Origin: an uncultured Lachnospiraceae bacterium
GTDB lineage: Bacteria > Bacillota > Clostridia > Lachnospirales > Lachnospiraceae
Assembly (NCBI GenBank): GCA_902783095.1
Contig: CACZPX010000271.1
Location: 1-28,500, forward strand
DNA: 28,500 bases
Direction of reading: 5' to 3'
Shown piece by piece: positions 21,423 through 23,544 of this stretch; positions within the stretch are counted from its first letter, which is position 1; every line of letters begins with the position of its first letter. A program made the position numbers and the translations under genes. The notes under the pieces were generated by a model. The model saw only the letters and a program-made list of their open reading frames with translations. It made no database searches and had not been told where the DNA came from.

Positions 21423-22808
21423 ATGATGAATACCAATATAAAGAACGAGATACCCTATAAGATCTACCTCACCGAAGACGAGATGCCCAAAGCCTGGTAC
21501 AACCTGCGCAGCGCGATGAAGAATAAACCCGCGCCGCTCTTAAATCCCGGCACCGGCCTGCCCATGACCGCTGCGGAGCTGGAGGGGGTGTTCTGCGCGG
21601 AGCTTGTGGCGCAGGAGCTGGACAACGACACGCCGTATTTTGAGATCCCGCAGGAGATCCGCGACTTCTACAAGATGTACCGCCCTTCGCCCCTGGTGCG
21701 CGCCTACTGCCTGGAGGAAAAACTCGGCACGCCCGCGCACATCTACTACAAGTTTGAGGGCAACAACACCAGCGGCAGCCACAAGCTGAACTCTGCCATC
21801 GCACAGGCCTACTACGCCAAAAAACAGGGGCTTGCGGGCGTCACCACCGAGACCGGCGCCGGCCAGTGGGGCACCGCGCTGTCCATGGCCTGCGGCTATC
21901 TGGGACTGGACTGCAAGGTATACATGGTGAAGGTAAGCTACGAGCAGAAGCCCTTCCGGCGCGAAGTGATGCGCACCTACGGCGCCTCCGTGACGCCCTC
22001 TCCGTCCGATACGACTGCGGTCGGCCGCAAGATCCTGGCGGAGAATCCGGGTACCACCGGCAGCCTCGGCTGTGCCATCAGCGAGGCCGTGGAAGCCGCC
22101 GTCTCCACGCCCGGCTACCGCTACGTACTGGGCAGCGTCTTAAACCAGGTGCTGCTGCACCAGAGCATCATCGGTCTGGAGACGCAGGCCGCGCTCGATA
22201 AGGTCGGCGTAAAGCCGGACATCATCATCGGCTGCGCCGGCGGCGGCAGCAACCTGGGCGGCCTGATCGCCCCGTTCATGCGCGACAAGATCAACGGGGA
22301 CCTGGATTGCCGCATCGTGGCGGTGGAACCGGCCAGCTGCCCCAGCCTTACGCGCGGCGTCTACGCCTACGATTTCTGCGACACCGGCATGGTCTGTCCG
22401 CTGGCCAAGATGTACACGCTGGGCAGCAGCTTTATCCCCGCGCCCAACCACGCCGGCGGCCTGCGCTACCACGGCATGAGTTCCATCCTGTCGCAGCTGT
22501 ACGACGACGGCCTGATGGAAGCGGTGTCCGTGCCGCAGGTGGAGGTCTTCAAGGCGGCGGAGGAATTTGCCCGCGTGGAGGGCATCCTGCCCGCGCCGGA
22601 AAGCAGCCACGCCATCAAGGCGGCCATCGACGAGGCCTTAAAGTGCAAGGAGACCGGCGAGGCCAAAAACATCGTATTCGGCCTGACCGGCACCGGCTAC
22701 TTTGACCTGGTGGCCTACCAGAAATTTCACGACGGCCAGCTGGACGACTACATCCCCACCGACGACGACCTGGCAAAGAGCCTGGCCAAGCTCCCGCACC
22801 TCGGCTGA
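21423..22808 (+). CDS. trpB2: Tryptophan synthase beta chain type 2 (TrpB2)
   Basis: YKFEGNNTSGSHKLNSA (PLP Lys), TETGAGQWG, GCAGGGSN, HAGGLRYHG, PAPESSHA; 461 aa, TrpB2-type length. Confidence 0.93.
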   Translation: MMNTNIKNEIPYKIYLTEDEMPKAWYNLRSAMKNKPAPLLNPGTGLPMTAAELEGVFCAELVAQELDNDTPYFEIPQEIRDFYKMYRPSPLVRAYCLEEKLGTPAHIYYKFEGNNTSGSHKLNSAIAQAYYAKKQGLAGVTTETGAGQWGTALSMACGYLGLDCKVYMVKVSYEQKPFRREVMRTYGASVTPSPSDTTAVGRKILAENPGTTGSLGCAISEAVEAAVSTPGYRYVLGSVLNQVLLHQSIIGLETQAALDKVGVKPDIIIGCAGGGSNLGGLIAPFMRDKINGDLDCRIVAVEPASCPSLTRGVYAYDFCDTGMVCPLAKMYTLGSSFIPAPNHAGGLRYHGMSSILSQLYDDGLMEAVSVPQVEVFKAAEEFARVEGILPAPESSHAIKAAIDEALKCKETGEAKNIVFGLTGTGYFDLVAYQKFHDGQLDDYIPTDDDLAKSLAKLPHLG

Positions 22809-22888
22809 GGACGCGGGTGAGGACGCGGGGACGGTCCTTCCTGTCCTCATTGTGAGTGAGGACACGGGGACGGTCCTTTCTGTCCTCA
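22806..22888. repeat. REP-like cluster 2 (partial plus two forward 32-bp palindromic units)
   Basis: TGAGGACRCGGGGACGGTCCTTYCTGTCCTCA at 22818-22849 and 22857-22888. Confidence 0.85.
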
Positions 22889-22911
22889 AAATTCCGACGT
22901 CTGCGCTACCC

Positions 22912-22950
22912 TGTCATCCTGAGCGGAGCAGCAGCAGAGCCGAAGGATCC
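22912..22950 (+). repeat. Single arm of a TGTCATCCTGAGCG...GAAGGATC-type palindromic repeat
   Basis: Sequence resembles a widespread bacterial REP-like family; no partner arm in window. Confidence 0.5.
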
Positions 22951-23012
22951 ATAACAGATTGTCAGGAGGCACTACTCCCATGCCGCAGCCGCGGCGCCTC
23001 CTTGCGATACCC

Positions 23013-23045
23013 GCAGCCGGCCTCTCCTCGCCGGCTGCACTTTTT
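23013..23045 (+). terminator. Terminator of trpB2 transcript
   Basis: GCAGCCGGC-CTCTCCTC-GCCGGCTGC-ACTTTTT. Confidence 0.75.
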
Positions 23046-23051
23046 GCCCTA

Positions 23052-23080
23052 TTGCATTTCCCGCTGTCCCGCTCTATAAC
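23052..23080 (+). promoter_or_regulatory. SigA-type promoter of putative antitoxin sRNA
   Basis: TTGCAT-17-TATAAC with no plus-strand protein gene directly downstream. Confidence 0.7.
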
Positions 23081-23086
23081 GTGCAT

Positions 23087-23172
23087 AACAAGACAGCCGA
23101 AAGGTGAGCATCCACCTGCCCCGGCAAACCAACGAAAGCCGTCAGCTCACAGCAGGGTCCGACGGCTTTGAT
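23087..23172 (+). ncRNA. Putative type I antitoxin sRNA (~85 nt)
   Basis: Own promoter; hairpin AGGTG/CACCT; terminal stem AAAGCCGTC/GACGGCTTT; antisense to the 3' end of the toxin ORF. Ends are approximate. Confidence 0.6.
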
Positions 23173-23249
23173 CTATGATTGACATTCAAAATACCGACAA
23201 CGATCAACCCGAAAGTCAATATGATCATCAGAATCTCGTAATCACTCAC
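23142..23249 (-). CDS. Putative holin-like type I toxin, 35 aa (MSDYEILMIILTFGLIVVGILNVNHRSKPSDPAVS)
   Basis: Not in ORF track. GTG start with SD AGGAGGT 6 nt upstream; single TM helix; N-term S-x-Y-E pattern as in the putative holin-like toxin (Hol_Tox) family. Confidence 0.75.
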   Translation of the reverse strand: MSDYEILMIILTFGLIVVGILNVNHRSKPSDPAVS

Positions 23250-23413
23250 AGAACCACCTCCTCCGCAAGACTCGGATCGGGTGCAAGCACGTCCCCGGCT
23301 GCCCGGGTAAACACATTACAGGGAGCAAAAGATAAGTTGAACGAAAGCAGAAGCTTTTCTATGCAATATAATATAACGGGCATCTGTCAATGTGTAGTAC
23401 AGTATCTGTTTTG

Positions 23414-23476
23414 CGAAGACAGTAAGAACCGTCCCTGCGTCCTCTGAGGACAGTAAGGACCGTCCCCGCGTCCTCA
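23414..23476. repeat. REP-like cluster 3 (two inverted units)
   Basis: 23445-23476 is the reverse complement of 22818-22849 with 1 mismatch; 23414-23445 is a degenerate copy. Confidence 0.85.
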
Positions 23477-23515
23477 CAATCTTTCCAAGCGGAGCATATG
23501 CCTTAGTTACTTGCA

Positions 23516-23544
23516 TTGACAAAAAGGCCTGCACGCCGTAATAT
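23516..23544 (+). promoter_or_regulatory. SigA-type promoter of aor operon
   Basis: TTGACA-17-TAATAT. Confidence 0.8.

What the first reader, a model, noticed from the sequence alone, without database searches (positions are those of the whole stretch)
23052..23400. Unannotated convergent type I toxin-antitoxin pair
Seen: a 35-aa single-TM ORF on the minus strand with strong SD and a ~100-nt leader. An AT-rich promoter region at 23361-23398 contains TTGACA and TATATT/TATTAT, but not at clean 17-bp spacing. A plus-strand TTGCAT-17-TATAAC promoter drives an ~85-nt structured RNA overlapping the toxin 3' end. CCACCT occurs both in the sRNA (23112-23117) and opposite the toxin SD (23254-23259), allowing SD pairing. 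Known: this convergent 3'-overlap layout is typical of Bacillota type I TA systems (TxpA/RatA type). Inference: a functional TA with an undescribed antitoxin RNA.
Basis: partly seen in the sequence, partly recalled or inferred. Interest (0 to 1): 0.7.

Follow-up and report, generated by a model that had tools for sequence, protein, structure and literature searches.

The report
Diverged bsrG/SR4-like toxin-antisense RNA cassette
This 300-base gap holds a small membrane-toxin gene facing an antisense RNA gene, a diverged copy of a toxin-antitoxin cassette already known from Bacillus and common in gut Clostridia, so it is real but ordinary.

Summary
The 35-aa minus-strand ORF (23142-23249) is a true homologue of the 'holin-like toxin' (Hol_Tox, TxpA/BsrG) peptides. 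A profile of 25 related toxins finds it alone among 39,175 ORFs of the genome (E 1.5e-8), although Pfam's own threshold is missed.

The plus-strand ~90-nt RNA (23087-23176) belongs to a conserved, structured antisense RNA family. My covariance model scores it 64 bits. The family occurs in 35 of 151 genera sampled from the window's family (Lachnospiraceae), nearly always convergent to such a peptide, and 20 of 22 base pairs show compensatory changes.

Across the family the toxin leader pairs with the mRNA's own 3' UTR, as in helix P1 of Bacillus subtilis bsrG, and the sRNA is antisense to that 3' arm. The likely mechanism is therefore that of bsrG/SR4, not direct sRNA-SD pairing. By homology the toxin promoter lies at 23313-23341, giving a ~57-nt leader, not the ~100-nt one.

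This copy is the most degenerate seen: GTG start, lost stop codon, weak promoters, weak P1. Transcription and toxicity remain untested. This scan has reported the same class on other DNA many times. Verdict: new member of a known kind.

The parts
23013..23048 (+). Intrinsic terminator (GCAGCCGGC..GCCGGCTGC plus T-run) just upstream of the sRNA -35. It ends transcription from the PLP-enzyme gene and insulates the sRNA promoter.
   Evidence: Terminator scan. The apparently analogous GC-rich hairpin before the -35 in related loci was read by eye only.
23052..23080 (+). sRNA promoter: -35 TTGCAT, 17-nt spacer, -10 TATAAC. It lies at the homologous position of the family's TTGACA-17/18-TATAAT.
   Evidence: This is the only family member whose -10 lacks the final T.
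23087..23176 (+). Antisense sRNA (~90 nt). It has a 5' tail with CAAGAC (23089-23094), SL1 (23096-23125, with CCACCT in its 3' strand), a linker, terminator hairpin SL2 (23135-23169) and a weak T-run.
   Evidence: Covariance model R1: 64.4 bits, E 3e-12. Fold -31 kcal/mol, z -3.5. Family covariation in 20 of 22 pairs.
23142..23249 (-). Toxin ORF, 35 aa (MSDYEILMIILTFGLIVVGILNVNHRSKPSDPAVS), GTG start. The last 8 codons run into the terminator hairpin because the family's TAG stop is AAG here.
   Evidence: Pfam Hol_Tox 18.4 bits, E 0.002, below the 23.3-bit cut-off.
23254..23264 (-). Shine-Dalgarno tract GGAGGAGGTGG (AGGAGG at 23257-23262, 7 nt from the GTG).
23255..23283 (-). SD-sequestering hairpin of the leader (CACC:GGTG and TCCG:CGGA). 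Its loop GUCUUG (23266-23271) is complementary to the sRNA 5' tail.
   Evidence: the same two-part hairpin in most of the 29 leaders, with compensatory changes read by eye. (tail-loop co-variation).
23294..23307 (-). 5'-terminal hairpin of the toxin mRNA (CCCGG-GCAG-CCGGG).
   Evidence: Compensatory CCCAG/CTGGG variants occur in other loci.
23313..23341 (-). Toxin promoter by homology: -35 TTCAAC (23336-23341), 17 nt, -10 TAATGT (23313-23318). Predicted TSS about 23306-23309.
   Evidence: Alignment with 28 related leaders, whose -10 sits at the same distance from ACCCGGGCAGCC.
23084..23141 (-). Toxin 3' UTR, if the mRNA reads through the shared hairpin. It is antisense to the sRNA 5' domain and forms the 3' arm of the P1-like helix with the leader.
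   Evidence: The helix is weak in this copy.
23368..23396 (-). It has no counterpart in related loci and its role is unknown.

Best explanation
The locus is a diverged copy of the bsrG/SR4-like type I toxin-antitoxin cassette (toxin family TxpA/BsrG, Pfam Hol_Tox). This cassette is common in Lachnospiraceae and other gut and rumen Clostridia.

Layout:
- Minus strand: a short mRNA starts near 23306-23309. It has a 5' stem-loop, a hairpin that hides the ribosome-binding site, a 35-aa single-helix membrane peptide and a 3' UTR.
- Plus strand: a ~90-nt sRNA (23087-23176) is made from a convergent promoter. Its terminator hairpin is the mirror image of the hairpin that holds the toxin stop codon. 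Its 5' domain is antisense to the toxin 3' UTR.

In the family, that 3' UTR pairs with the toxin's own leader, like helix P1 of bsrG.

Inferred mechanism, by analogy with bsrG/SR4:
1. The sRNA first contacts the toxin mRNA through the complementary terminator loops.
2. It zips along the 3' UTR, creating an RNase III substrate.
3. This frees the leader, whose anti-SD then closes on the SD.
4. The toxin mRNA is thus both degraded and silenced.
5. Without the sRNA, the peptide is made and damages the membrane.

Shown here: homology of the peptide; homology, conservation and covariation of the sRNA; the conserved leader hairpins; and leader/3' UTR co-variation in the family.

For: Peptide:
- It aligns with Hol_Tox peptides of other genera; M1, S2 and E5 are invariant. 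Seven of 8 aligned peptides match PF16935, best E 6.6e-13.
- An HMM of 25 module toxins, built without the window's peptide, hits only this ORF in the genome (E 1.5e-8).

sRNA:
- Nucleotide-level conservation of the antisense promoter, SL1 and the terminator holds across Lachnospiraceae, Oscillospiraceae, Ruminococcus and Clostridium loci.
- Model R1 finds the window copy at 64.4 bits. It finds 35 of 151 genera in the family, with 1-6 copies each.
- 96% of cells are paired and 20 of 22 pairs carry compensatory changes; 0 of 500 shuffles reach this.
- About 20 of 28 hits checked have a convergent small hydrophobic ORF ending in the sRNA terminator: 17 score with the toxin profile at E<=0.05, and a few more carry a different peptide type read by eye.

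bsrG-like fold:
- Rfam BsrG (RF01412) aligns to a homologue's toxin mRNA below threshold (29.5 bits, E 2e-5 locally), including its 5'-3' helix.
- The full-length mRNA minimum-energy fold pairs the leader with the last 75 nt in 28 of 29 loci.
- The cognate leader/3' UTR duplex is stronger than non-cognate ones (-50.3 vs -44.4 kcal/mol, permutation p 5e-5).
- One leader position and its sRNA counterpart match in 17 of 17 loci across four base states.

Experimental precedent: Jahn & Brantl 2013, PMC3834814.
Against: - No RNA evidence: the only RNA-labelled runs holding the stretch are unstranded contigs at depth ~3-4 and are probably DNA.
- This copy deviates from the family consensus at nearly every signal. 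The sRNA -10 is TATAAC and its -35 is TTGCAT. The sRNA T-run is weak (TTTGATCT). The toxin -10 is TAATGT. The start codon is GTG. The stop codon is lost, giving an 8-aa tail.
- Its leader/3' UTR duplex is the weakest of 29 (-37 kcal/mol) and no better than shuffles (z -1.2).
- Pfam's threshold is missed, and Rfam BsrG gives no hit in the window at E<=10.
- The shared hairpin also looks like a terminator in the toxin direction. If so, the mRNA may end there and have no P1 arm.
Confidence: 0.8

Rival explanations
1. The cassette is a decaying, no longer functional remnant of such a module. The sequence is recognisable by descent, but the promoters are too weak and the RNA pairings too eroded for it to act as a toxin-antitoxin pair.
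For: The sRNA -10 lacks the conserved final T, uniquely among 20 aligned loci. The family's TAG stop is AAG here, so the ORF runs 8 codons into the hairpin. The SL1 outer stem has lost a pair. The P1 duplex is the weakest of 29 and not above shuffles. The R1 score of 64 bits compares with 80-113 for canonical copies. There is a single copy in the genome, and none was found in 7 congeners.
Against: The ORF is intact with a strong AGGAGG SD and an intact hydrophobic helix. Both sRNA hairpins and both leader hairpins still fold. The SD (AGGTGG) and the SD look-alike in the 3' UTR carry the same two changes relative to the consensus GGGTGA. Metagenomic strain variants keep the whole cassette, with only a few substitutions per ~200-nt contig. 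In a 60.6% GC genome, AT-rich signals may simply look different.
Confidence: 0.3
2. One reading: the toxin mRNA starts at the AT-rich block (~100-nt leader), and the sRNA blocks translation mainly by pairing its CCACCU directly with the SD.
For: CCACCT is present in the sRNA and is complementary to AGGTGG of the SD. In canonical loci the equivalent TCACCC matches the SD GGGTGA. The distal block matches the sigma-70 consensus better (9 of 12) than the homology-based promoter does.
Against: CCACCT lies in the 3' strand of the conserved SL1 stem, so it is not free. The hexamer is no more frequent in the window than chance. The sRNA element that matches the leader loop and the one that matches the SD lie in an order that cannot form one continuous duplex. 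The distal block has no counterpart in 28 related loci. The extended leader x sRNA duplex is not above shuffles (z -1.4).
Confidence: 0.15
3. The peptide is not a toxin but a small membrane regulator, like the competence inhibitor ComI of Bacillus subtilis plasmid pBS32. The antisense RNA merely tunes its level.
For: Four of 8 homologues match NCBIfam ComI (best E 3.5e-7); the window peptide matches weakly (E 0.064). Fozo et al. 2010 found that some peptides with antisense RNAs, such as YhzE-2, are not toxic.
Against: The ComI matches for the window peptide are far below the 55-bit cut-off. Three homologues also match the type I toxin PepG1. Relatives of the same family (TxpA, BsrG, EF3263) are experimentally toxic.
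Confidence: 0.08
4. A chance ORF and chance hairpins in a repeat-rich intergenic region, with no gene pair at all.
For: The region is flanked by genome-wide REP-like palindromes. GC-rich sequence gives strong duplex energies by chance.
Against: Significant profile and covariance-model hits. The ORF, leader, sRNA promoter and hairpins are colinear with dozens of loci in other genera.
Confidence: 0.02

Closest known systems
bsrG/SR4 of Bacillus subtilis prophage SPbeta (Jahn & Brantl 2013, PMC3834814; Rfam RF01412 for the toxin mRNA)
   Same: Small single-helix peptide starting M-[ST]-x-Y-E. Convergent sRNA whose terminator hairpin is antisense to the hairpin holding the toxin stop codon. Leader paired with the 3' UTR in a long helix (P1). 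SD inside a stem that can lengthen when the leader is released. Rfam BsrG aligns to a homologue's mRNA with these helices.
   Different: The match is below Rfam's threshold (29.5 vs 55 bits), and there is none for the window copy. The sRNA here is ~90 nt with two hairpins, against 180 nt and four for SR4. No separate toxin terminator follows P1. The host is a rumen Lachnospiraceae, not Bacillus, and no prophage context was seen. In this copy P1 is weak.
txpA/RatA of B. subtilis skin element and its Enterococcus faecalis relative EF3263 (Fozo et al. 2010, PMC2887945)
   Same: Same toxin superfamily: Fozo et al. counted 'holin-like toxins' within the TxpA family and found TxpA-like ORFs in Clostridiales. 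Convergent antisense RNA over the toxin 3' end; a ~110-nt RNA was detected for EF3263.
   Different: No Rfam antitoxin family, RatA included, matches the window. The sequence and structure of the antitoxin are unrelated as far as tested. TxpA itself is described as longer (59 aa; from my memory, not tested here).
sprG1/SprF1 of Staphylococcus aureus (toxin PepG1)
   Same: Three of 8 homologous peptides match NCBIfam PepG1, best E 1.3e-5. It is a type I system with a 3'-overlapping antisense RNA (established knowledge).
   Different: The window peptide itself gives no PepG1 match. No RNA similarity was tested or found.
par (fst RNA I / RNA II) of Enterococcus plasmid pAD1
   Same: Convergent transcripts sharing a bidirectional terminator. 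A second contact lies outside the overlap, near the toxin ribosome-binding region (T1TAdb paper). Here the sRNA 5' tail CAAGAC matches the leader hairpin loop GUCUUG, and this pairing co-varies across loci.
   Different: The toxin is unrelated to Fst. Here the repeated elements are inverted, not direct, so they cannot form one colinear duplex. No Rfam hit.

Membership tests
Pfam Hol_Tox (PF16935) | Score at or above the curated gathering threshold (23.3 bits) | tested here: not met
   The window peptide scores 18.4 bits, E 0.002. Seven of 8 aligned peptides (the window's included) match, best E 6.6e-13.
TxpA/BsrG-Hol_Tox toxin superfamily (by descent) | Significant profile similarity to peptides of the same cassette; N-terminal M-S-x-Y-E, one hydrophobic helix, basic C-terminus | tested here: met
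   An HMM of 25 cassette toxins, built without the window's peptide, gives E 1.5e-8 and 35.2 bits; the next ORF in the genome has E 2.9. M1, S2 and E5 are invariant. The basic tail (HRSK) is present but followed by an unusual 7-aa extension.
Type I toxin-antitoxin system | Antisense RNA gene with its own promoter and terminator, overlapping the toxin mRNA | tested here: met
   Homologous sRNA gene at 64.4 bits. The promoter sits at the conserved position. Two hairpins, z -3.5. Family covariation. Caveat: weak -10 and weak T-run in this copy.
Type I toxin-antitoxin system | Both RNAs are transcribed | tested here: inconclusive
   Only unstranded Logan contigs at depth ~3-4, from runs that are probably DNA.
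Type I toxin-antitoxin system | The peptide is toxic when overproduced and the RNA neutralises it | not testable with these tools
   Needs expression experiments.
bsrG/SR4 (Rfam RF01412 BsrG mRNA) | Covariance-model score at or above the gathering threshold (55 bits) | tested here: not met
   No hit in the window at E<=10. Homologue L012 scores 29.5, 27.4 and 21.3 bits for its three tandem copies.
bsrG/SR4 architecture | 5' ~35 nt paired with the 3' UTR (helix P1), with the antitoxin antisense to the 3' arm; SD in a stem | tested here: inconclusive
   Family: predicted in 28 of 29 loci; cognate duplexes are stronger than non-cognate ones, p 5e-5. Window copy: 11+8 long-range pairs in the minimum-energy fold, but the duplex of -37 kcal/mol is not above shuffles (z -1.2). 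[quoted passage not shown]
txpA/RatA, par RNA II, SprF and other Rfam antitoxin RNA families | Match to the family's covariance model | tested here: not met
   No antitoxin family among matches up to E 10 in the window, or up to E 1 in three canonical loci.

The most novel reading that the evidence does not exclude
The cassette family may work by 'leader mimicry'. Its two ends form an imperfect inverted repeat comprising the -10 box plus the first ~45 transcribed bases of both genes, and the two ends evolve in concert. The antitoxin RNA is therefore a near copy of the toxin's own leader and competes with it for the 3' UTR. A second, co-varying contact lies between the sRNA 5' tail and the loop of the SD hairpin. 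This antitoxin RNA family is present in about a quarter of the Lachnospiraceae genera sampled and has no Rfam model. If it is shown to be functional, it would be a new RNA family and a refinement of the bsrG/SR4 paradigm.
Probability: 0.3. Interest if true: 0.5.

Novelty: new member of a known kind. Interest (0 to 1): 0.3.

Why it matters
The finding adds one more example, and not a clean one, to a well-studied class, so its direct importance is small.

It has practical value for annotation. Such peptides are missed in metagenome-assembled genomes, and the antitoxin RNA has no Rfam model. A covariance model like R1 would annotate the RNA partner in roughly a quarter of Lachnospiraceae genera.

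It has some conceptual value too. The family shows that the bsrG-type fold, with the leader paired to the 3' UTR, is conserved far outside Bacillus. It also offers many natural sequence variants for testing how an antisense RNA at the 3' end controls a ribosome-binding site at the 5' end.

Tried and rejected
- The search for related loci could not use the short peptide alignment.
- A 16-nt pattern scan of genome contigs returned mostly chance hits. Only 15 of 120 were real cassettes.
- RNA evidence: two run searches and the single read-laying run gave only low-depth, unstranded contigs. A 'joint' skipping 556 nt (22888 to 23445) has only 24 nt on one side and lies in REP repeats, so I did not read it as an empty site.
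- DNA searches of the phage and plasmid collections with a canonical cassette found nothing.
- Synteny in five congeners: the PLP-enzyme gene is conserved but the oxidoreductase gene is not adjacent, so no empty-site comparison was possible.
- An extended duplex between the sRNA 5' domain and the toxin leader looked striking (-37 to -50 kcal/mol). For the window it is not above dinucleotide shuffles (z -1.4), so I rejected it as evidence.
- RNAalifold on a sequence-based leader alignment did not recover the SD hairpin because of misaligned gaps. I used per-sequence folds instead. The SD is paired with probability 0.76 against 0.63 in controls, a modest difference.
- I considered a MITE-like mobile element bounded by the inverted repeat. 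I did not pursue it: the repeat arms are the two promoters and transcript starts, and copies occur in tandem rather than dispersed.

Full report
**Setting.** The finding lies in a 790-nt gap between two plus-strand genes. Upstream is a PLP-dependent (TrpB-like) enzyme gene (21423-22808); downstream is an aldehyde:ferredoxin oxidoreductase gene (from ~23598). The window is contig C271 of a 1.85-Mb, 68%-complete assembly with 60.6% GC. Runs that hold the sequence are sheep, goat and bovine gut metagenomes. A homologous peptide in a 'same family' genome is NCBI WP_408626298.1, 'putative holin-like toxin [Diplocloster]'. The organism is therefore a Lachnospiraceae.

**Observation.**
- The ORF is at 23142-23249 (-), 35 aa, with a GTG start.
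- AGGAGG lies 7 nt upstream within GGAGGAGGTGG.
- The plus-strand promoter is TTGCAT-17-TATAAC at 23052-23080.
- The AT-rich block has a badly spaced TTGACA.
- CCACCT is at 23112-23117 and 23254-23259.

The hexamer pair alone is not remarkable: there are 15 copies in the window against 12.1 +/- 3.4 expected. The putative sRNA (23087-23176) folds into two hairpins at -31 kcal/mol, z -3.5.

**The peptide.**
- Pfam Hol_Tox matches below threshold (18.4 vs 23.3 bits).
- A six-frame search of relatives found peptides such as MSTYEEFMIILAFASLIVAILNFTHKK in other genera, including three tandem copies in one genome. Seven of 8 aligned peptides match Hol_Tox, best E 6.6e-13.
- A profile of 25 cassette-linked toxins, built without the window's peptide, finds the window ORF at E 1.5e-8. 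Nothing else among 39,175 ORFs of the genome scores better than E 2.9.
- The alignment supports the GTG start: M-S-D-Y-E against M-S-T-Y-E.
- Homologues also touch NCBIfam ComI and the type I toxin PepG1.
- Fozo et al. 2010 already placed 'holin-like toxins' in the TxpA family and reported TxpA-like ORFs in Clostridiales.

**The antisense RNA.** Related loci are conserved at the nucleotide level outside the ORF. A pattern scan recovered 15 more cassettes from Lachnospiraceae, Oscillospiraceae, Ruminococcus, Clostridium and Mediterraneibacter assemblies. All of them share four elements on the strand opposite the toxin:
1. TTGACA-17/18-TATAAT.
2. A 5' tail, AACA(A/G)GACAG.
3. Stem-loop SL1 (outer stem GCCGG/CCGGC, inner stem GGTGA/TCACC).
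4. A terminator hairpin directly abutting the toxin stop codon. Its T-run is the complement of the toxin's C-terminal lysine codons.

A covariance model of 19 such RNAs (R1) gave these results:
- It scores the window copy at 64.4 bits, the only convincing hit in the genome.
- It finds the RNA in 35 of 151 genera sampled from the window's family, with 1-6 copies per genome.
- On 55 aligned matches, 96% of cells are paired and 20 of 22 pairs show changes on both sides. This exceeds all 500 shuffles and all slid controls. The alignment is fitted to the model, which favours the structure.
- About 20 of 28 hits checked have a convergent small hydrophobic ORF ending in the terminator. Seventeen score with the toxin profile at E<=0.05, and a few more carry a different peptide type read by eye.

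Rfam has no family for this RNA.

**Toxin promoter and leader.** In 28 related loci the -10 box lies 6-7 nt before a conserved ACCCGGGCAGCCGGGGGACGTGCT. The window has TAATGT (23313-23318) at exactly that place, with TTCAAC 17 nt upstream. This gives a leader of ~57 nt. The AT-rich block at 23368-23396 has no counterpart elsewhere and its role is open. The leader folds into a 5'-terminal hairpin (23294-23307) and a two-part hairpin that buries the SD (23255-23283). The same fold recurs in most of the 29 leaders, with compensatory variants such as CACCC/GGGTG to CATCC/GGATG and TCCG/CGGA to TCTG/CAGA (read by eye).

**Mechanism.**
- The first ~45 nt of the sRNA resemble the first ~45 nt of the toxin mRNA, and the two co-vary between loci. 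One position takes all four bases and matches in 17 of 17 loci. Most differences are G in the leader against A in the sRNA, which would give G-U pairs if the leader pairs with the complement of the sRNA.
- That complement is the toxin 3' UTR. Rfam's BsrG model aligns below threshold to a homologue's toxin mRNA and places just such a 5'-3' helix.
- In B. subtilis bsrG, nt 1-35 and 232-262 form helix P1. SR4 first touches the mRNA through its terminator loop. In the complex the 5' arm becomes single-stranded and the SD helix grows from 4 to 8 bp.
- Full-length toxin mRNAs of this family fold with the leader paired to the last 75 nt in 28 of 29 loci. Cognate leader/3' UTR duplexes are stronger than non-cognate ones (-50.3 vs -44.4 kcal/mol, permutation p 5e-5).
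- I therefore favour the bsrG/SR4 mechanism: the sRNA binds the 3' part, triggers decay, and lets the leader close on the SD.
Its complement in the 3' UTR is an SD look-alike. Direct pairing with the real SD is possible but is not the simplest reading.
- A further contact is suggested: the sRNA tail CAAGAC (23089-23094) is complementary to the leader loop GUCUUG (23266-23271). This pairing co-varies across loci (cognate -6.5 vs non-cognate -4.7 kcal/mol, p 5e-5). Related loci are not independent, so both p values overstate the evidence.
- The promoter -10 and discriminator regions also appear to co-vary between the two arms (read by eye). RNA pairing cannot explain that, which points to some concerted evolution of the inverted repeat at the DNA level.

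**State of this copy.** It is the most deviant member seen.
- The start codon is GTG.
- The family's TAG stop reads AAG, so translation runs 8 codons into the hairpin.
- The sRNA -10 is TATAAC and its -35 is TTGCAT.
- The sRNA T-run is weak.
- The SL1 outer stem is shortened.
- The P1 duplex is the weakest of 29 and no better than shuffles.

Against decay: the ORF, a strong SD and all four hairpins are intact, and strain variants in metagenomes keep the cassette. I put about 0.3 on it being inactive.

**Context.** The cassette is bracketed by two doublets of a 33-nt palindromic repeat (22817-22888 and 23415-23477). This repeat occurs at more than 50 places in the genome, so it is a REP-like element and not a boundary specific to the cassette. 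The peptide was not found in 7 congeners, and flanking synteny is not conserved.

**Novelty.** The toxin family, the convergent layout and the probable mechanism are all known. TxpA-like toxins in Clostridiales were listed in 2010, although a 2019 review notes them only for Clostridium bolteae among clostridia. This scan has already reported bsrG/SR4-like cassettes in gut Clostridia many times (47 notes share the search words; all 8 shown reach that verdict). I read those notes only after reaching the same comparison through Rfam and the paper. The finding is a sound but ordinary new member of a known kind.

Noticed in passing
window 22817-22888 and 23415-23477: Two doublets of a 33-nt palindromic repeat (GTGAGGACGCGGGGACGGTCCTTCCTGTCCTCA) flank the cassette in inverted orientation. 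The same repeat gives 108 matches at more than 50 places in the 1.85-Mb assembly, often as doublets, so it is a REP-like family.
   Followed up: partly
window 22910-22950: A ~40-nt element (CCTGTCATCCTGAGCGGAGCAGCAGCAGAGCCGAAGGATCC) recurs once more in the own genome (C65:13255-13297). In a congener (G001) it has at least 25 copies, including six in tandem at ~50-nt spacing (C169:3743-4030).
   Followed up: no
window 23367-23372 (+): A perfect TATAAT on the plus strand lies inside the AT-rich block, pointing towards the oxidoreductase gene. That gene also has its own TTGACA-17-TAATAT promoter at 23516-23544.
   Followed up: no
L012 (G027:C119:110562-111356): Three complete cassettes in tandem at ~305-315-bp spacing in a Diplocloster-like genome. 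Each has its own toxin and sRNA.
   Followed up: partly
L146, L158, L159, L160, L164, L167 (same-family genomes): More diverged members of the sRNA family sit opposite a different small peptide type (for example MVTYCDLFTFVIMLCAVITLVIYAQRKK). The RNA scaffold is thus shared by at least two peptide subfamilies.
   Followed up: no
all related loci, both ends of the cassette: The -10 box and discriminator of the toxin and sRNA promoters co-vary within loci (for example TATAATAGACTTA at both ends of L051 and L119). This suggests concerted evolution of the inverted repeat at the DNA level.
   Followed up: partly
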